From NCBI GenBank assembly GCA_963809485.1, contig CAWEJX010000020.1, positions 1,024,001 through 1,088,000 on the forward strand: DNA of 64,000 nucleotides, given 5' to 3'. Shown here in pieces: positions 1,859-8,907 of the stretch (position 1 is its first letter; each line of letters opens with the position of its first letter). Source of the stretch: an uncultured Acidobacteriota bacterium (lineage in GTDB: Bacteria > Acidobacteriota > UBA6911). The notes beneath the pieces are model-generated. The model did not search any database and was not told the DNA's origin. It was given only the letters and a program-made list of their open reading frames with translations. The position numbers and the translations under genes were made by a program.

Positions 1859-2611
1859 TCAGGCGGATTCCAGCAAAAACGAGGTCGGCGCGGCAGAACG
1901 AGACATAGTCAGGAAGGGTAGATAGTGCCGTAAAACATGCGGGTGGACCTTCTTTACAAGCCCGCATCGTTTCGCGGCTCGCAGACACGCCTGCCATGGG
2001 ACTTTAGTCGTGATCGGGGTTGAGGATGTATGATGTCTTCCTCCCGGAAACAGCCACTCTTTTGGTCGGTGTTGTTTCCAATGTTCGCGCAGCGCTTCGT
2101 ACAACACCTGGCTGAGCATCACCTCGCGATCTTTCAGTCCTTTGCCGCGGACTCTAATGACCATTCTTTTGCTGTCAATGTCGCTAATTCGCATATTTGC
2201 CAGCTCAGCACGCCGCACTCCGGTGGCATACAACGTCATCAGTATTACACGGTGAAACGGGAGATCAGCGGATTCGATCAGAAGACCGACTTCTTCAGGG
2301 CTCAATATGTGCGGCAAACTGATCACTCTTTTTGGATAAGGAGTTTCTGCCGTGTTCCATGGCCGATGCAGGGTCTTTACGAAGAAGAAACGCAGGGCAG
2401 CAAGGCGCTGGTTGACCGTGTTAGGAGATAGTTTCTTGTCAGTGAACAGGTGTGCTTGGTAGTGCCGGATGTGTTCCAGGCCTAATTTGTCTGGAGGGCA
2501 GTTGAAATATAATGCAAAATCTTCGATGCCTCGGATGTAGCATTCACGCGTGGCGTCCGAATAGTTCCGTCGCACGAGTTCCTCGATCGTAATTGTTCTT
2601 AAATGAGTCAT
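1859..2611 (-). pseudogene. Tyrosine recombinase with N-terminal SAM-like domain (type often paired with IS91-like transposases), truncated by the RIT insertion
   Basis: YATGVRRAEL, RGKGLKDR and KVHPHVLRH are present, then homology stops abruptly. The box II His/Tyr region is missing. Confidence 0.85.
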
Positions 2612-2867
2612 GGTTTTCTCCTTGTATGACTCACGATATCGTCATTCTTCACCTCCATGTTCGTGTAAAGACGCGAAGCGTCCGCCGCGCAGCGGCTACG
2701 TTCAAGTCCCGATCTGGGAAACTATGCCCGCGATGATTCCTGGCAGCCGGCGGACCTGCGTCATAGTGCGAGCGGGAATTCGGCACCGGCGCAAGGCTGT
2801 AGATCAAATCCTGGCCGGTGCCTTTGAGGCAGAACCGTAATACATCCGGAGACCTTCCAAGCCGCCG

Positions 2868-3254
2868 CTACTTCTTCGTAATCTTAAAATCGCCGTTTCG
2901 ATTATCGTGTTTCCAAGTGCCCGTCATCGTGCCGCCCTCAACCTTCCCGTCGATCACGTAGTGGATCTGATTTCCTCTGCGGTTTGTTGCATCAGCCTCA
3001 AAGTGAATGGCATCTGTTTTGGGATCAAAGGTGGCTTTTTTGAGCTCGACTGCATTCGCACCGGGATTAACGGTTCCGGTTAGGTTCTTTCCATCCCATT
3101 TCAGCTCAACAGTGACCTGATTGCGGTCAGTCACACTCGGTCCCCAATCGCCCGCCCAGGTGCCGTTTAAGGGGTCATCTGCAGCATTCAAAGAGACAAC
3201 AGAAACGCCGGCTACCAGAAATACTGCCAGAAGTGCCAATTGTAGAGTTTTCAT
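2868..3254 (-). CDS. Secreted beta-rich hypothetical protein
   Basis: Sec signal peptide (MKTLQLALLAVFLVAG...), GGAGG RBS, GTW...G pattern. Confidence 0.8.
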   Translation of the reverse strand: MKTLQLALLAVFLVAGVSVVSLNAADDPLNGTWAGDWGPSVTDRNQVTVELKWDGKNLTGTVNPGANAVELKKATFDPKTDAIHFEADATNRRGNQIHYVIDGKVEGGTMTGTWKHDNRNGDFKITKK

Positions 3255-3819
3255 CGTCTAAGTCCTCCATGAGTGAGTTGGTGTAAAGAATAGGCGACCG
3301 CCGGAGGGGTCGGCGGCCAGCCTCTCGGTACCTCCCCTACCGCCGCAAGCCGTGAGCAACTGGATATTCCAAAAGCACGGCACGTTATCGGGACCGATCC
3401 TGTTCGCAAATACATTCGGTTTCCTTTGGCGAAGAGACATGCCTAAATCTGTACCGCGGCGTCCCCGGTCAATTCTACCACGAAGCTATTTCCTCGGGAG
3501 TGTCCGGATTGGTGATCCGCCAACCAAGCGTCCAAGGAAACGTGGCCGTAGGATTGATGTTTTGGCGGCCTGCGGACGGTTCGCGAGAAATGCTCTCGCG
3601 CCATATAAAGAGCGGCGGAAAGTGGTACCTCGTGGATCCTGCAACCTGCACCACACTCAAGCTGCTTTAACAGGACGATACGCCCAGAAATGGATGCCGG
3701 ACAGACAGATCCCGCCGATCGGCCCTTAACATTGCTGCAGTCCCAACCACTGGCCGGTATGTCAGCGCTGACCGTCCCAAGGTTGTCATTGCCCCGAAGT
3801 CCCGTCCTATGAAAGCGGA

Positions 3820-4200
3820 TGTCAAGGACAAATTTCTCCGTTCCAGGCGCGAGGGAAAATTTTTATTCCGCGATATCCAGCCGCTGCTCGTAATCGTACC
3901 CCGCTGATCCTGCAGTTCAGCCCTATTGAACGACGGACATTTGCTGCACGTGAATGGTTGCAACACAACCAGGGGCATTTCAGATCCTCCGAGACTTTAA
4001 AAGCGCTTGCGGCAGTTTGCCGACCATGGTCCTATCTGAGGCTCGAGCCTATTGCTTTATTCGGTCATGCGAGGGGGCCTAGGATTCGAGTGGAACCTGG
4101 CTTTTGCCGGCTACGGGACTTCTTGAGGCTCACCCCCGACCTCGCGTCTCGTGTGGAAATCATCTTGATTTGCCACAGCTGCTTACAACCTATTCCCGAG
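3820..4200 (-). ncRNA. Putative bridge/seek-type guide RNA in the IS110 3' non-coding end
   Basis: Guide-like matches to both insertion-site flanks (4112-4122 and 3864-3876), enclosed by long-range stems. RNA ends are approximate. Confidence 0.7.
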
Positions 4201-4205
4201 ACGCT

Positions 4206-5267
4206 TTATGCCGCGTGCGACGAAATAGTCAATTTTTTGGGATCGTAGCGTTCTCCTCTTTTCCAAAGTGCTAATGTGATAGCGGCGATCTTCCTGGCCA
4301 GAGTCAGACGTGCTAATGATTCTGGAGTGCCGTTTTCGATCATGGCACTGAAACGAGATTTCCATTGACCCACCGCGGCGGTTTTAGCGGCACCTTTGAA
4401 TACTGATTTCAGCACCCGGTTGTAGTTGCGATTCAGGCCGCGAACGAGAGGTCGTTTTTTGGATTTGGAAATGTTTCCATTAATCAGCTCGTACTCCGAA
4501 CTTGCTTTGGTGATCACCGACAACCCGCAGTAGGTCCAGAATTGTTTTCTGGTGCGAAAGCGGTGGGGAGTGCCGGCAATTCCGAGAATCACCGCTGCAC
4601 GCAAAGGACCGATCCCCGGAGCGCTTCGAAGAACTTTAGTGTCTGCATGTTTGCGTGCTTCGGCCAGTAGTTCCTTTTCTGCCTCATCTCGTAAAGTGTC
4701 CAAAGACGCAAGTTGTTCCAATAGCCTTTTGGCTCGCGCACGTACCGCCTGATTCTCCAGCTTGTCAAGCCAACTTTCTCGTTCCTCTGATTTGTAAACG
4801 CCTTCGCCGCTGCAGTCGATTCCCCTGCCTCGAAATATCGCTTTTAGCCGATTTTTTATCCTGGTTACGTCTTGAACAATTCCGTTATAGCTTCGGACAA
4901 GTTCCTTCACAGCCGTTGTGCTATGTTCTCCATGATAAACTGGCGTCAGACTATTTGTGCGTAGAAGTTCTGCCAGTAGTTTTGCATCAATTTTGTCGTT
5001 CTTAATTCCACGGTTAACAATCTTCCTTGGATCGCACACCACAACATTGGCTACGTGGGGTCGGATTAGATCGTACAGCCAGGCTGCATAGGTCCCTTCT
5101 TCAAAAGCCACATGCAATGTGCCCCGCTGACCATGCATAAAGTCAAGTATGGCCTCTGATGTTGTTTTGACCAAAGCTTCAGTCAATTTTTCACCCTGGC
5201 TGTTCAAAACAACAATAACTGTGATTGCCTTATGCACATCCATCCCGATATACTTGAGTGCATTCAT
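4206..5267 (-). CDS. IS110 family transposase/recombinase
   Basis: YIGMDVHK, FEEG, KNDKIDA (DEDD RuvC-like), PGIGP, YCGL and ASS (catalytic Ser) motifs. GGAG RBS before ATG 5267. Confidence 0.93.
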   Translation of the reverse strand: MNALKYIGMDVHKAITVIVVLNSQGEKLTEALVKTTSEAILDFMHGQRGTLHVAFEEGTYAAWLYDLIRPHVANVVVCDPRKIVNRGIKNDKIDAKLLAELLRTNSLTPVYHGEHSTTAVKELVRSYNGIVQDVTRIKNRLKAIFRGRGIDCSGEGVYKSEERESWLDKLENQAVRARAKRLLEQLASLDTLRDEAEKELLAEARKHADTKVLRSAPGIGPLRAAVILGIAGTPHRFRTRKQFWTYCGLSVITKASSEYELINGNISKSKKRPLVRGLNRNYNRVLKSVFKGAAKTAAVGQWKSRFSAMIENGTPESLARLTLARKIAAITLALWKRGERYDPKKLTISSHAA

Positions 5268-5352
5268 AGGACGCTCCTTTGGTGATTTGGAATTTGAAGC
5301 CACATTGACCTTATCACTATTGGAGCGTCTTTTTTTCATATTTCTTATTCCG

Positions 5353-5361
5353 TGATATAAT
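5353..5361 (+). promoter_or_regulatory. Extended -10 promoter (TGnTATAAT)
   Basis: TGATATAAT directly upstream of a structured, terminator-ended segment. Confidence 0.6.
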
Positions 5362-5366
5362 TGTTC

Positions 5367-5490
5367 CCGCCTGGTGAAACGGAGTCAGGCTCTGCGGGGA
5401 CGCAACCTTACAAGGGATAGCCAGGCCGACGGTGCGTCGACCAAGCACCTGAGGCCTCTGACAATCGAAACGTCAGAGGCTTTTTCTTTT
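5367..5490 (+). ncRNA. Candidate structured small RNA, family not recognised
   Basis: Consecutive or nested stems (GCCTG/CAGGC, TGCG/CGCA, AGGCC/GGCCT enclosing GGTGC/GCACC) between a promoter and an intrinsic terminator. Confidence 0.55.
5454..5490 (+). terminator. Rho-independent terminator
   Basis: GCCTCTGAC-N9-GTCAGAGGC followed by TTTTTCTTTT. Confidence 0.8.
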
Positions 5491-5857
5491 ATGGCTCGAA
5501 CACCGGAGCTATGCCTTATAAAATCCCGGGGATTGTGGCAGAGCTCCGACGGCTGTCGTTTTGTGACAGCCGCTTTCCCTCGCATTCCACCCCTGATCAT
5601 TACTCGGGGGCGTGCTTTCATAATGCGTTCGAGGAAGTTATTGCTCAACAATCGAATCCGTCGTTTGGCAGGGCTGTCTGGTCACTTTATTCGAACCCTA
5701 ACGCAGGAGTTTGCGGTCTCCACCAAGAGTCTTTTTTGAACATCTTCCTTTTCGGCGCTGCTGAATTTGATCTGGATCTGATACTCGATACCATTTTGTA
5801 CCCACCATAAATTCAGAACTCCTGACATGGTCCAGCAATAAATTGTCCGCCTTTTGA

Positions 5858-8125
5858 TCAGGTCGCAGGTTCGCCAACAGCGAATTGGATCCGGAGCTTT
5901 GTGCCTGGAAATCTTGTCGATGTCTTGTTCAACTCCTGGCACACTGCGGCGATTGCCCGCGAGCGGTGAGGCGAACTCAGGGGGGCTAATGTCACCCGAA
6001 GCTCCTTGTCAGTCGGTTCGATCGTGGCAGCGCTCCTGAGCGCAGTCTGGATTAGAGTGCGTCCCTCGTCCTCGGTGCGCGGATAGACAGGCCGCAAGAT
6101 CTCCACAAGGCTTCCCTCGATTTGATAGGCTACCATCTTCAGGATATCGCTCAGATGTTTCCTTTCAACCGACAGCTTCATTGCCTGTTCAGCCTGTGGG
6201 GATTCGGACAGGAGAATTCGAGCCGGCATGGATTTCTGCCGTTTGACCAGTCGGGCGATTTCGGCGGCCGCTTCGAAGAGCTCCCGCTGAATTTCCCTTT
6301 CGGCCGCGGTAAAAGCACGCATGGTTGGGGTGCGTCCTTCGAGGTAGTCCAATGCTGCAGAACCATACCGCTCTTGCAGTTTCGCGAGATGGCTGCGAGC
6401 CTTTCGGAGTTCTTTATCAACCACTTTTCGTGCCGGATTGGGAATGGAACGGTTCGGGTCGTCTGGTTCAGCTTCGTAATCTACGAGGGCATCAATCAGG
6501 AACTCCTGCCGCATGTACTTAAAGAAATTCTCCCGCCGCCATCGATCAAACATGCGATACGCCACGACGATATCACGTAATTTCCAGCGACTCGTCAGAA
6601 CCGCGGTTTGATGGCCGGTTTCCGTTAGTCTGGTGACTTGACGGAGCCGGAGCTTGCCTTTCAGGAACCGGACCGCTTGATCATGAAGCAAGTATTGCAG
6701 GCGGCGGCCGTTGAATTTTGCCTTTCGAAGCATAAATCTCTTCTCGGAGATTTTGTGGAAACCAGCCTTGCGGTAAGTAAGGATGTCAAATCCCATATCG
6801 AGAATGGTCAGGAATAGCCGTGGGGAAAAGCCGCCTCGGTCGAACACGACCGTCAATCGCCGTTGCGGACCGACAAGATTGCGGACCTGCTCGAGGATCG
6901 GCACAAGTATGCGCGTCATGGCCGCATTGGCTTCTGCGGTGACCAAGAACAGTGGATCTCCCTTCTGGTCGTTGATCCAGTAATCGGTGGTGCCGGGGGC
7001 AGCGATTCGTCTACGGGTCACGTAGGCTTTCGGAATCATGCGCTTACCGTGATAGGCGCGAACGTGCCCGTCAACATAGAGAAATCCTAGCGTTCGTCCC
7101 CGCTCGGCAACGCGGCGACGAGCCAGTTCAATTCCAAATTCCCGGCTTTTTTTCATAGAGGCAAGACGGGCGAACTTGCGTCTCAGGGTTTTTACCTCGA
7201 GCATTCGATCCAGTCCGATAATGCGGCCGAGGTCTCCGGGAGAATGTTCCTTGAGTGTTTCCGGGCGTGGGATACGCAGCAATGCAAGCAGTACCAGGGT
7301 GACGATTGTTGTACGCAATCCGTAGAATGCCGGCCCGATGGAGGAGTAGATCTTGTGTGCCGCGGTTAGCACGCCGCTATTGACCAGGGACGGTATTGCG
7401 AGCAGAACGCCGGCTCCGGGAAGGTTCTCCGTCCGCGCAAATAAGGGAGCGGCATCCTCAAGCTTTCCCATCGCGGCCAGTAGCCGATCCAAGGAACGGT
7501 CGAGCGGGTTACGGTCGAAGCTGACTGGGAGATGCTCATTTGCACTATTATCATTGGCGGTTGTCACGACCACGGAAGGCTCATTTAGGCCTGACGGTGA
7601 TTTTATCGGTCCTATAACATCGTCCTTCATTGTCTCAAACGGCGGGCAGATTACCGTTTGAGACTTCCATCCAAGGCGGCGCAACCGTTTCCGGATCGCC
7701 TTCTCGGAAAATCCCAGCTTTACAGCAATCGAACGATTGCTGAGGCCTCGTTCTTTGAGCTGGAGGATCGTCCGATCCCGCCCCTGCATTTGCGGAGGGC
7801 CATTCTGAAAGGGACGTCCGCGAGGTCGTCCAAGAGCTGCGATCCCGCCGGACTCGATCCGTTCCTGGTATCGTCGGAGGGTTCGCGGCGTGCAGCCGAA
7901 TACCCGGGCGATGTCGTTTTGATCCGCATATCCCGCCTCGAACAACGTAACCATCGCACATTCCTGCGCTGCATGGTCCGCCACGTCATAGTGCATCAGA
8001 ACGAGTCCTTGCAGGAATACTGCTCGCCGGGATCCTTCGGTCCGGATGCTGACCCTATCATTGAGAACAACCGTCCCGCTTGGCGGGCTCGAAAACTCAA
8101 GAAGTTTGCGCTGTTGGGCTGTCAT
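5858..8125 (-). CDS. 755-aa putative transposase (two HTH domains + DDE-like core)
   Basis: HTH segments, FLYVDGH, VFDRGG and RWRRENFFK motifs; the only long ORF between the TIRs. Confidence 0.85.
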   Translation of the reverse strand: MTAQQRKLLEFSSPPSGTVVLNDRVSIRTEGSRRAVFLQGLVLMHYDVADHAAQECAMVTLFEAGYADQNDIARVFGCTPRTLRRYQERIESGGIAALGRPRGRPFQNGPPQMQGRDRTILQLKERGLSNRSIAVKLGFSEKAIRKRLRRLGWKSQTVICPPFETMKDDVIGPIKSPSGLNEPSVVVTTANDNSANEHLPVSFDRNPLDRSLDRLLAAMGKLEDAAPLFARTENLPGAGVLLAIPSLVNSGVLTAAHKIYSSIGPAFYGLRTTIVTLVLLALLRIPRPETLKEHSPGDLGRIIGLDRMLEVKTLRRKFARLASMKKSREFGIELARRRVAERGRTLGFLYVDGHVRAYHGKRMIPKAYVTRRRIAAPGTTDYWINDQKGDPLFLVTAEANAAMTRILVPILEQVRNLVGPQRRLTVVFDRGGFSPRLFLTILDMGFDILTYRKAGFHKISEKRFMLRKAKFNGRRLQYLLHDQAVRFLKGKLRLRQVTRLTETGHQTAVLTSRWKLRDIVVAYRMFDRWRRENFFKYMRQEFLIDALVDYEAEPDDPNRSIPNPARKVVDKELRKARSHLAKLQERYGSAALDYLEGRTPTMRAFTAAEREIQRELFEAAAEIARLVKRQKSMPARILLSESPQAEQAMKLSVERKHLSDILKMVAYQIEGSLVEILRPVYPRTEDEGRTLIQTALRSAATIEPTDKELRVTLAPLSSPHRSRAIAAVCQELNKTSTRFPGTKLRIQFAVGEPAT

Positions 8126-8168
8126 GGTCGATCAGCATGACCGACCATGGGATCCAGGCCAAATATTG

Positions 8169-8458
8169 AAAAAGCGGACAGTTTTCGGTCCGCACCAAAA
8201 TCTAAACAGTCATGCCAAATTATGTTCTTTTTGGAATACCTCTGATTGACCTATAAGCCACATCTGGCGTGGGTTTGCGGCGATCCGAGCATACCTGCTT
8301 ACGCAAAAAGCGGACAGTTTTTGGTCCGCACTTGAGCCACGATAAGATGCTGGCGTATTGACGATTTTATACAGAGGGCGTCAGAGTGGATTGTAGTGAT
8401 ACGCCTACCTTTTCACATCTTCGCCAGATGAAAAAAGCGGACAGTTTTTGGTCCGCAC
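8169..8458 (+). repeat. Three 27-bp palindromic direct repeats
   Basis: AAAAAGCGGACAGTTTTYGGTCCGCAC at 8169, 8305 and 8432, separated by 109 and 100 nt of unique sequence. Confidence 0.9.
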
Positions 8459-8907
8459 CCATGTCAGAAATACTGCTCAAATTCCTAGGATTTTCAAGGG
8501 CATGTCAGGAGTTCTGAAATTAGCAGGGGCACAAGAACCGCCGCATGAGACAGGGCTGAAATGTGCGACCATACCGTTTGCCAATCGAACCCCTTTTTCA
8601 TCAAGATCCCGGTAGATTTTCGTAGATGCCCCAAACCCTGCAGCATAGGTCGCATTGTTTGTCTCTTTGTCATAATAGAGAGAGATGAAGTAGCCGTGAT
8701 CCCTGATCTCGCCCCAAGCAAATTCAATTGCTTTCGGATCGTCCAACCAAGGCAATTTCGAAGGAAGAAGGATCGGGATTTGTATCTTGCCGACGATTTG
8801 AGCAAGCGCAGGCCTAAAAACCTGGGCTGGTTCATTCGTCTCTGCAATTGCCCAATTCAGCACTGAAGCGTTCCAAAAGATCAATGTCAAACCGATTTTG
8901 AGTGCTA

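What the first reader, a model, noticed from the sequence alone, without database searches (positions are those of the whole stretch)
3796..5358. IS110 3' non-coding end encodes both halves of its own target site, about 235 nt apart, joined by long-range stems (atypical bridge/seek RNA)
Seen in sequence: removing 3806-5346 gives the empty site GAAGTCCCG-TA-TTCCGTGATAT. The transposase-sense RNA downstream of the ORF contains GAAGUCCCGUA (+4112-4122), an 11/11 match to one half including the TA. It also contains AUAUCGCGGAAUA (+3864-3876), a 12/13 match to the other half on the opposite strand; the single difference would be a G-T wobble. The two segments overlap exactly on the TA. They are enclosed by an outer stem AGACGCGAGG/CCUCGCGCCU (4140-4149 with 3845-3854, 9 of 10 bp) and an inner stem (A)GCCG/CGGC(U) (4108-4112 with 3879-3883), forming one internal loop with a large domain inserted between the guides. 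Established: IS110 and IS1111 recombinases use bridge/seek RNAs with paired target guides, normally close together in a compact loop. Inference: this is a larger, differently organised guide RNA with longer guides (about 22-nt total specificity). A donor-side match is only partial (AUAGGA), and the right junction has GA rather than TA.
Basis: partly seen in the sequence, partly recalled or inferred. Interest (0 to 1): 0.85.

Follow-up and report, generated by a model that had tools for sequence, protein, structure and literature searches.

The report
Compact bridge RNA, misjudged IS end
This is a single-copy IS110-family insertion sequence whose guide RNA has the usual compact two-loop layout; the far-apart second guide was an artefact of placing the element's left end about 280 bases too far in.

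Summary
The mobile unit is window 3806-5626 (1,821 bp), not 3806-5346. Three results support this. An unoccupied copy of the joined flanks lies on contig C14 of the same genome. A 9-bp subterminal inverted repeat sits at the outer ends. Four further subfamily copies in other genomes carry the same left end with unrelated flanks. The true partner guide lies 22 nt further 3' in the RNA (4084-4090), across a small hairpin, inside a stem-closed internal loop. A second conserved loop follows; its 3' strand equals the element's own right end plus core in 28 of 30 relatives. This is the known IS1111-type seekRNA / bridge RNA layout. A match that good arises in 26 of 300 shuffles and is absent from relatives. 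The segment overlaps the 5' arm of a stem, supported across the family, that pairs with the right end. The long-range stems pair in 52.8% of cells across 30 relatives, no better than a mis-registered control. Verdict: an ordinary new member of a known kind.

The parts
3806..5626 (-). Whole insertion sequence (1,821 bp), flanked on the + strand by GT at 3804-3805 and 5627-5628 (AC core in transposase orientation). The boundary is ambiguous by 1-3 nt because CGT is shared at both junctions.
   Evidence: Unoccupied site on C14 and homology starting at 5626. LE and RE motifs shared with relatives whose outer flanks differ.
3806..3826 (-). Right end (RE): CTTGACATCC + subterminal inverted repeat GCTTTCATA + GG. 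Contains a TTGACA -35-like hexamer.
   Evidence: A CTTGACATCC-like motif with a CATAGG-type end was found in most of the 80 loci scanned (about 67 of 79, my count). A 9-bp inverted repeat with the LE is read.
5614..5626 (-). Left end (LE): GCATTATGAAAGC, with the subterminal inverted repeat TATGAAAGC.
   Evidence: Same motif, preceded by unrelated flanks, in L003, G007:C705 and G005:C168; G001:C219 has the variant ACATTATGAAAGC.
4206..5339 (-). Transposase ORF, 377 aa. Residues 1-24 may not be translated; relatives align from residue 3 to 28.
   Evidence: Pfam PF01548 74.2 bits and PF02371 46.6 bits. NCBIfam NF033542 'IS110 family RNA-guided transposase' 156.9 bits, cut-off 140. Weak PDB matches to the ISCro4 and IS621 transposases.
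4144..4204 (-). 5' hairpin P1 of the non-coding RNA (GCGUCUCG 4197-4204 pairs with CGAGACGC 4144-4151).
   Evidence: RNAalifold on 4 subfamily copies: 8 pairs, one compensatory C-G to U-A change, one G-U.
4070..4138 (-). Target-binding loop. Basal stem 4126-4138 pairs with 4070-4080. Inside it: T guide, inner hairpin, B guide.
   Evidence: 11-bp stem, 98.2% of cells paired in 30 sequences, 3 pairs with changes on both sides. Coordinates.
4113..4122 (-). T guide (RTG-like) GAAGUCCCGU, complementary to the top strand of core + right target ACGGGACTTC.
   Evidence: 10/10 to the right flank and to the C14 site. Covaries in L003 (8 nt) and G004:C393 (8 nt). Anchored run of 6 or more in 17 of 29 relatives versus 27 of 774 non-cognate pairs.
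4091..4112 (-). Inner hairpin between the two guides.
   Evidence: Homologous local hairpin in all 30 aligned relatives, many with a GUGC-UUCG-GCAC type stem-loop. Its base pairs 142-144/179-181 are 93.3% paired.
4084..4090 (-). B guide (LTG-like) CUCGAAU, same sense as left target + core CTCGAAC (6 nt plus a G-U wobble at the last core position).
   Evidence: Same alignment columns as the B guides of relatives. Anchored run of 5 or more in 21 of 29 versus 60 of 736 non-cognate pairs. The T-to-B start distance is 38-51 nt in the 26 of 64 loci where both best matches abut the core, and 32 nt here.
4021..4067 (-). Donor-binding loop. Stem 4063-4067 pairs with 4021-4025; inner hairpin 4039-4050. 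The 3' strand carries AUAGGAC (4029-4035), which equals the RE end plus core.
   Evidence: Stems 94.7% and 100% paired with compensatory changes. The heptamer is identical to the element's own last 5 RE bases + 2-nt core in 28 of 30 sequences, in four sequence types.
3864..3876 (-). Not a guide. It overlaps by 3 to 5 bases the 5' arm (GGAUAUC, 3872-3878) of a stem with the RE end (GACAUCC, 3817-3823).
   Evidence: GGCUGGAU is near-invariant across 30 sequences. The stem's first 5 pairs are 88% paired, with compensatory variants GGACG/CGUCC (L071) and GGAGAG/CUCUCC (L064, L080). There is no flank match at these columns in 29 relatives: the best exact match is 4-7 nt.
5346..5358 (-). Internal look-alike of the second segment (ATATCACGGAATA in transposase orientation). 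It lies between the transposase start and the sRNA-like module and overlaps that module's extended -10 promoter.
   Evidence: In L003 and G007:C705 the homologous NCR segment matches their own 5' region only 8/13 and 9/13.
5362..5492 (+). sRNA-like module inside the 5' extension, antisense to the transposase leader. It is structured and ends in a GC-rich hairpin plus a U run. Its promoter TTTTCA-17-TATAAT with an upstream TG lies just upstream at 5333-5361.
   Evidence: Promoter scan 10/12. 33 consensus pairs, 5 of them compensatory, in 6 sequences. Model R1 hits 7 of 61 genomes. No Rfam family.

Best explanation
Window 3806-5626 is one 1.82-kb IS110-family element of the IS1111-like kind. It has subterminal inverted repeats, a long 3' non-coding region, and the top-strand guide placed 5' of the bottom-strand guide.

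Downstream of the transposase it encodes a canonical two-loop bridge/seek RNA of about 120 nt (4021-4138), preceded by a hairpin.
- Loop 1 holds a 10-nt guide for the right half of the target (4113-4122). Twenty-two nt further on, across a small hairpin, it holds a 6-7-nt guide for the left half (4084-4090). The two overlap on an AC core.
- Loop 2 holds a donor guide identical to the element's right end plus core (4029-4035).

By analogy with IS621, ISEc11 and ISPa11, the recombinase would use loop 1 to find the site CTTCCTCGA-AC-GGGACTTC and loop 2 to hold the circularised element. This step is inferred.

The remaining 215 nt of the 3' region (3806-4020) ends in a stem, supported across the family, that pairs GGAUAUC with the right-end GACAUCC. 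Its resemblance to 5346-5358 is a chance match to an internal sequence. The element has a 282-bp 5' extension carrying an antisense sRNA-like module.
For: Boundaries:
- The C14 site GAAGTCC-CGT-TCGAGGAAG is contiguous, and homology to the window starts exactly at 5626 (97.9% over 188 bp).
- L003, G007:C705 and G005:C168 share GCATTATGAAAGC, and G001:C219 the variant ACATTATGAAAGC; all four have different outer flanks.

Guides:
- In 26 of 64 loci both unanchored best flank matches abut the core. In all 26 they start 38-51 nt apart, and none is about 235 nt apart (my count).
- Anchored at the aligned columns, the T run is 6 or more in 17/29 cognate versus 27/774 non-cognate pairs. The B run is 5 or more in 21/29 versus 60/736.
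- Within the subfamily, the T guide changes with the right flank in W, L003 and G004:C393.

Structure:
- The local model has 95.5% of 840 cells paired and 9 pairs changed on both sides. 0 of 500 shuffles reach it, and slid controls reach at most 52.5%.

Donor loop:
- The heptamer equals the RE end + core in 28/30 rows, against 14/622 non-cognate pairs.

Protein:
- PF01548 and PF02371; NF033542 above its cut-off.

Published layout:
- In IS1111 seekRNAs of 82-96 nt the top-strand match lies 5' of the bottom-strand match (PMC11187229, section 9).
- Bridge RNAs have two internal loops (PMC11208160, passages).
Against: - The B guide of this copy matches its left flank over only 6 nt plus one wobble.
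- G007:C705's T guide matches its right flank over only 3 nt.
- 12 of 29 T guides and 8 of 29 B guides fall below my thresholds. Some of these are due to alignment offsets or a mis-called LE.
- No right-donor guide could be identified.
- The C14 site is paralogous, not allelic: beyond about 20 nt its other flank differs from the window's. It shows an intact target rather than the ancestral locus.
- The assembly is a 21-contig genome with 7.3% estimated contamination.
- There is no expression or circle-junction evidence.
- The 12/13 look-alike sits within 2 nt of the position homologous to the LE of short-LE relatives. This coincidence is not explained by my reading.
Confidence: 0.85

Rival explanations
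1. The guide RNA is atypical: its two target guides lie about 235 nt apart (4112-4122 and 3864-3876), held together by long-range stems, with the element ending at 5346.
For: In this one copy the 12/13 match and the 9/10 and 5/5 stems exist. The inner stem's columns can pair in 4 of 4 subfamily copies (94.7% of cells), but both sides are nearly invariant.
Against: - The matched 'flank' is inside the element.
- The match arises in 26/300 shuffles.
- In the four closest copies most of the segment is a constant scaffold; the best flank match at these columns is 4-7 nt in 29 relatives.
- The outer stem is 65% paired in 4 copies and 42.5% in 30.
- Six of the ten bases of the outer stem's 5' arm (4140-4149) belong to hairpin P1 (4144-4151), which has one compensatory change, and the inner stem's 5' arm lies in the inner hairpin, whose base is 93.3% paired.
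- A canonical partner guide exists 22 nt from the first.
Confidence: 0.03
2. Composite, modular element in the manner of ISPpu9/MITEPpu9. An ancestral unit (3806 to about 5344), with a vestigial inner left end at the transposase start, can still move alone. The 282-bp extension (outer LE + sRNA module) is a hitch-hiking module. The 12/13 match would be a relic or guide of the inner unit's insertion.
For: - The inner LE-like stretch is 14/24 identical to the outer LE in W and 16/24 in G005:C168.
- It lies 95 nt from the IGMD codon, where short-LE relatives have their real LE (96 and 91 nt).
- G005:C168 lacks the module.
- The module occurs without the IS in G018:C20 and G002:C158.
- Modular circles are documented for ISPpu9 (PMC12288879, passages).
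Against: - At this locus the whole 1,821 bp is what interrupts the C14-type site.
- Four diverged subfamily copies keep the extension in the same place.
- The inner motif has lost GC at LE positions 1-2 and shares only a 7-bp repeat with the RE.
- L003 and G007:C705 show no NCR match to the sequence before their inner motif.
Confidence: 0.07
3. The similarity between 3864-3876 and 5346-5358 is functional in regulation rather than targeting. For example, the RE-proximal RNA might mimic the transposase leader, or titrate a factor or antisense transcript that acts at the sRNA promoter or leader.
For: The similarity extends to 16 matches in a 21-nt window and lies at a promoter. Antisense and sense sRNAs regulate ISPpu9 transposase (PMC12288879, passages).
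Against: 16/21 is reached in 42/300 shuffles. It is not conserved in L003 or G007:C705. The predicted antisense transcript starts downstream of the look-alike, so it would not contain it.
Confidence: 0.03

Closest known systems
IS1111-group seekRNAs (ISEc11, ISPa11, ISKpn4, ISPst6; Siddiquee et al. 2024, PMC11187229; abstract and sections 6, 9 and 13 read)
   Same: - The non-coding region lies downstream of the transposase.
- There are subterminal inverted repeats.
- Two short target matches overlap in the target, with the top-strand match 5' of the bottom-strand match.
- The core RNA is compact.
   Different: - The transposase is 377 aa (353 from Met25), against the 330-350 aa reported for IS1111 transposases.
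- The C-terminal motif reads GLSV....SS, where the paper gives GL-P----S(t)G (read).
- The 3' region is long (400 nt), and this subfamily also has a 287-nt 5' region.
- The host is Acidobacteriota.
- Protein identity to plasmid-borne IS110-family genes is at most 28%.
IS621 bridge RNA (Durrant et al. 2024, PMC11208160, passages read; structures 8wt6 etc.)
   Same: - A 5' hairpin is followed by two stem-closed internal loops.
- The first loop is variable and covaries with the target.
- The second loop is conserved and matches the element's own ends.
- Each loop reads one strand on each side of a 2-nt core.
   Different: - The RNA is encoded at the 3' end, not the 5' end.
- The order of the guides within the loop is reversed.
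- The right-donor guide was not identified here.
- No Rfam family matches it.
- The recombinase is only weakly similar (E 4.9e-7).
ISPpu9 with Asr9/Ssr9 and MITEPpu9 (Pares-Guillen et al. 2025, PMC12288879, passages read)
   Same: - An IS110-family element carries an extra small-RNA gene.
- An antisense RNA gene sits just upstream of the transposase.
- Copies of the RNA module also occur away from the transposase.
- End-like motifs are duplicated.
   Different: - No sequence relation was tested.
- Here the module lies between an outer and an inner left end.
- Its expression and any effect on the transposase are untested.

Membership tests
IS110 family (DEDD recombinase elements) | N-terminal DEDD/RuvC-like domain plus C-terminal Transposase_20 domain | tested here: met
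   PF01548 1.3e-20 and PF02371 4.5e-12. NF033542 156.9 bits, cut-off 140. Alignment to ISCro4 keeps the GxD, E and D..D positions.
IS110 family (DEDD recombinase elements) | Site-specific insertion with a short core repeated at both junctions and no long target duplication | tested here: met
   AC (GT on the + strand) is at both junctions, and the C14 site has one copy. Relatives show AT or AC cores.
IS1111 group | Subterminal inverted repeats of 7-17 bp | tested here: met
   TATGAAAGC / GCTTTCATA, 9 bp. Relatives have 10-12 bp, e.g. TATGAGAGAGG.
IS1111 group | Longer non-coding region downstream of the transposase, holding the guide RNA | tested here: met
   The 3' region is 400 nt and carries both loops. 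This subfamily also has a 287-nt 5' region.
IS1111 group | Top-strand target match 5' of the bottom-strand match | tested here: met
   The T guide precedes the B guide in W and in the 26 loci with clean matches.
IS1111 group | Transposase of 330-350 aa with a GL-P----S(t)G motif, clustering with IS1111 in a tree | tested here: not met
   The length is 377 aa and the motif reads GLSVITKASS. No tree with named IS1111 members was built, so clade membership is untested. I therefore call it IS1111-like, not a member.
Bridge/seek RNA | Stem-closed internal loop whose two strands pair with opposite strands of the two target halves and overlap at the core | tested here: met
   In W: 10 nt, and 6 nt plus a wobble.
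Bridge/seek RNA | Second loop complementary to the element's own ends (donor) | tested here: inconclusive
   The left-donor guide is clear (28/30). No convincing right-donor guide was found by inspection of A5.
Bridge/seek RNA | The RNA is expressed, binds the recombinase and is needed for transposition | not testable with these tools
   No RNA data could be laid on it. Only metagenome contigs were available.

The most novel reading that the evidence does not exclude
This Acidobacteriota clade of IS1111-like elements carries RNA layers beyond the bridge RNA.
- A family-wide 3' tail has a near-invariant GGCUGGAU motif that pairs with the right-end -35 region. It may set the RNA's 3' end or gate the junction promoter.
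- In the window's subfamily, a promoter-to-terminator antisense sRNA module sits between an outer and a vestigial inner left end. It may control the transposase in the manner of Asr9, or hitch-hike as a separately mobilisable module.
Probability: 0.3. Interest if true: 0.4.

Novelty: new member of a known kind. Interest (0 to 1): 0.2.

Why it matters
The claim that would have mattered does not survive. That claim was a bridge RNA with a large domain inserted between long guides and about 22 nt of specificity.

What remains is useful but modest:
- A well-resolved bridge RNA model for a deep, abundant Acidobacteriota clade: 477 confirmed relatives in one scan, with at most 28% protein identity to plasmid-borne IS110 genes.
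- Clear target and left-donor guide covariation.
- No Rfam family for this RNA.

The case also shows that IS110-family ends cannot be set from a short inverted repeat alone, which the seekRNA paper itself warns about (PMC11187229, section 13).

Tried and rejected
- Rfam scans of 3300-5900, 5330-5650 and 3790-4220 at E up to 10 gave only chance-level hits.
- MFE folding of the 420-nt 3' region was no better than shuffles (z -0.20), so single-sequence folding says nothing either way.
- A search of 41 relatives' genomes with the window's other flank (3400-3805) found only the own genome. No allelic empty site was found in the genomes searched.
- The flank 5347-5625 did hit relatives. That is what showed it to be part of the element.
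- The own genome has a single copy of the IS and a single PF01548 gene, so no within-genome copies could set the ends.
- Sequencing runs: no RNA holder was listed. The four runs laid (X1, X2, X3, X10) are metagenome contigs with at most 0.29 of the words. No contig bridged the empty site or a circle junction. The four joints listed have short sides (20-28 nt) at 90% likeness, and I give them no weight.
The hairpin and U run are read.
- My first anchored guide comparison used a loosened LE pattern that mis-called several left ends, including W's, and a fixed column that was off by one. I discarded it and replaced it.
- I looked by eye for a right-donor guide in the 5' strand of loop 2 and found no consistent complementarity to the LE.
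- I considered whether C7, whose copy of the left-hand repeat ends at the same point, holds a related IS110 element. It does not.
- Supplementary files of the papers were not opened. The ISfinder-wide trees and bridge RNA tables in them could bear on whether this clade was already catalogued.
- I ran no literature search for this specific Acidobacteriota clade, so I do not claim it is unpublished.
Full report
WHAT IS THERE. The minus strand of 4206-5339 encodes a 377-aa protein. It matches PF01548 (DEDD_Tnp_IS110) and PF02371 (Transposase_20). It also passes NCBIfam NF033542, 'IS110 family RNA-guided transposase', at 156.9 bits against a cut-off of 140. It matches the solved ISCro4 and IS621 transposases weakly, with the acidic motifs aligned. 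It is the only PF01548 gene in this 6.0-Mb, 21-contig genome.

THE ENDS. Three lines of evidence put the left end at 5626.

(i) A BLAST of the first 12 kb of the window against the own genome shows that 5626-5813 is 97.9% identical to contig C14 696-509. On C14 that block is preceded directly by GAAGTCC-CGT. The window's two outer flanks are therefore contiguous on C14 as GAAGTCC-CGT-TCGAGGAAG. Beyond about 20 nt the C14 flank differs from the window's. The C14 site is thus a paralogous intact target, not the ancestral allele.

(ii) In transposase orientation the outer left end reads AC|GCATTATGAAAGC and the right end reads ...CTTGACATCCGCTTTCATAGG|AC. This gives a 9-bp subterminal inverted repeat and the same AC on both sides.

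(iii) Four further copies of the subfamily carry the same left-end motif preceded by unrelated sequence: L003, with 65% protein identity, G007:C705 and G005:C168, plus G001:C219 with a one-base variant. Three of them also share the 5347-5625 stretch next to the transposase.

Eighty more distant loci (47-52% protein identity) were kept from 477 confirmed relatives, nearly all Acidobacteriota. Multi-copy families among them show the same anatomy: LE GCA(A/T)TAT(G/A)A..., RE CTTGACATCC-repeat-(C/T)ATAG(G/A), and a 2-nt AT or AC core.

The stretch at 5346 downwards is 14/24 identical to the outer LE. It also lies 95 nt from the IGMD codon, where short-LE relatives have their real LE (96 and 91 nt).

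THE GUIDES. For each locus I took 14 nt outside each end and looked for the longest exact match in the 3' region. In 26 of 64 loci both best matches abut the core. In all 26 the match to the right flank (reverse complement) starts 38-51 nt upstream of the match to the left flank (same sense). In no locus do two core-abutting matches lie about 235 nt apart (my count from the table).

In a 30-sequence alignment of the 3' regions (A5) the two guides occupy fixed, variable blocks between invariant scaffolds. Anchored at those columns, the right-flank guide has a contiguous match of 6 nt or more in 17 of 29 elements, against 27 of 774 non-cognate pairings. The left-flank guide has 5 nt or more in 21 of 29, against 60 of 736.

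It changes with the flank in L003 (AACGCCGU, flank ACGGCGTT) and in G004:C393 (UAGGGUGU, flank ACACCCTA). G007:C705 matches only 3 nt. The second block reads CUCGAAU (4084-4090) against the true left target CTCGAAC. That is six matches plus a G-U wobble, which is short but in register. L003 has GAAAC and G007:C705 has UCAC (7 of 9) at the same place.

THE STRUCTURE. RNAalifold on A5 gives the following helices:
- An 11-bp stem closing the loop that holds both guides.
- A small hairpin between the guides.
- A second stem-closed loop with its own hairpin.

Counted on A5 together with a 5-bp right-end stem, this local model has 95.5% of 840 cells paired. Nine pairs change on both sides. No shuffle out of 500 reaches any of four of the five measures, and slid controls reach at most 52.5%.

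The 3' strand of the second loop carries a heptamer identical to the element's own last five RE bases plus the 2-nt core in 28 of 30 sequences. It comes in four sequence types: AUAGAAC, AUAGGAU, AUAGGAC and AUGGAAC. Among non-cognate pairs with different ends, 14 of 622 are identical. The two exceptions differ only at the first core base. I could not find a right-donor guide.

The layout is a 5' hairpin, a variable target loop, then a conserved donor loop. This is what Durrant et al. describe (PMC11208160, passages). The guide order is the one Siddiquee et al. report for IS1111-type seekRNAs of 82-96 nt (PMC11187229, section 9).

The 13-mer at 3864-3876 matches 5346-5358, inside the element. 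A 12/13 match between the 3' region and the 289-nt 5' region, on either strand, arises in 26 of 300 dinucleotide-preserving shuffles. The 16-of-21 extension arises in 42 of 300.

In L003 and G007:C705 the homologous segment matches their own 5' regions only 8/13 and 9/13. In 29 relatives the homologous columns match the flanks by at most 4-7 nt, with no preferred position.

The segment begins inside a near-invariant GGCUGGAU. In the subfamily it continues as GGAUGUCGCGG whatever the target.

RNAalifold on four subfamily copies pairs it with the right-end CCUUGACAUCC. Across families the first five pairs are 88% paired, with compensatory forms GGACG/CGUCC in L071 and GGAGAG/CUCUCC in L064 and L080. 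The window's own copy has an A-C mismatch there.

In 30 sequences it is 42.5% paired. Both stems together give 52.8%, while sliding the partner by +1 gives 58.8%.

Six of the ten bases of its 5' arm (4140-4149) belong to hairpin P1, GCGUCUCG/CGAGACGC (3' arm 4144-4151). P1 has a compensatory C-G to U-A change in G004:C393. The inner stem's 5' arm is part of the hairpin between the guides. The inner stem's columns can pair in the four subfamily copies (94.7%). Both sides are almost invariant there, so this says nothing. Across 30 sequences they pair in 67.5%.

WHAT THE 'LEFT FLANK' REALLY IS. On the + strand, 5333-5361 is a promoter-like site, TTTTCA-17-TATAAT with TG before the -10 hexamer (10 of 12). 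Downstream is a module of about 130 nt with a consensus structure of 33 pairs, 5 of them compensatory, in six sequences. It ends in a GC-rich hairpin and a U run.

The module is antisense to the transposase leader. It occurs in the four subfamily copies, and without the IS in G018:C20 and G002:C158. A covariance model finds it in 7 of 61 genomes searched. Its most conserved 80 nt have very high summed contig depth in two metagenome runs, 604 and 238, in many contexts. No Rfam family matches. ISPpu9 offers a precedent for an antisense sRNA just upstream of an IS110-family transposase gene and for separately mobile sRNA modules (PMC12288879, passages).

HOW IT MOST LIKELY WORKS.
- Shown here: the anatomy, the guide-flank and donor-guide covariation, and the conserved stems.
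- Inferred from the IS621 and ISEc11 work: the element circularises by joining RE and LE through one AC. The junction would place the RE TTGACA 17 nt from CATTAT in the LE, which I read as a possible junction promoter. The RNA binds the recombinase. Loop 1 pairs with CTTCCTCGA-AC-GGGACTTC and loop 2 pairs with the junction. Recombination at AC then inserts the element.
- Untested: the roles of the 215-nt tail and of the antisense module.

VERDICT. This is a new member of a known kind, with low interest as posed. Confidence in the compact canonical reading is 0.85.

Noticed in passing
window 5333-5492 (+): Promoter-to-terminator sRNA-like module inside the IS, antisense to the transposase leader. 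It has a conserved structure (33 pairs, 5 compensatory, in 6 sequences). It is sporadic (7 of 61 genomes with model R1), also occurs without the IS, and has no Rfam match.
   Followed up: partly
window 5363-5443: The module's most conserved part has very high summed contig depth in two metagenome runs (X2 about 604, X3 about 238). It has many different upstream contexts, each with a -10-like hexamer. This suggests a widespread short element in wetland and soil communities.
   Followed up: no
G000:C8:662873-662902 (L002 1501-1530): Solo remnant of the IS right end: the last 21 bp, CTTGACATCC...CATAGG. It is followed by ACGGGATTT, a near copy of the right target half, with no transposase nearby.
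   Followed up: partly
window 5814-8516: A 2.7-kb insertion relative to C14. It carries a 755-aa ORF (5858-8125, minus strand) with PF21804 Transposase_29 (4.1e-86) and N-terminal HTH domains. This is a second, unrelated IS about 190 bp from the first.
   Followed up: partly
window 1926-3802; G000:C7:196419-200009: The sequence on the window's low-coordinate side of the IS, flanking its right end (RE), is a repeat 99% identical to C7. It ends at 3802, three bases from the IS junction. On C7 a different 1.7-kb segment, which holds no IS110-family gene, separates the two repeat blocks and adjoins that repeat end. The repeat end may be a hot spot or itself a mobile-element terminus.
   Followed up: partly
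L057 4434-5075; also L060, L077, L082: Tandem or nearby extra copies of the RE-terminal segment in relatives. In L057 there are five units at a 155-bp period, each ending in CTTGACATCC...TATAGA plus the same flank. This is reminiscent of solo-end or MITE-like amplification.
   Followed up: no
L003 3001-4132: In the closest relative (65% identity) the transposase reading frame is broken by a frameshift near codon 45. It is either a decayed copy or an assembly error.
   Followed up: no
window 4206-5339 (-), residues about 268-280: The conserved C-terminal serine motif reads GLSVITKASS (SS where IS621 and IS1111 relatives have SG, V where IS1111 has P). L003 has the same SS.
   Followed up: no
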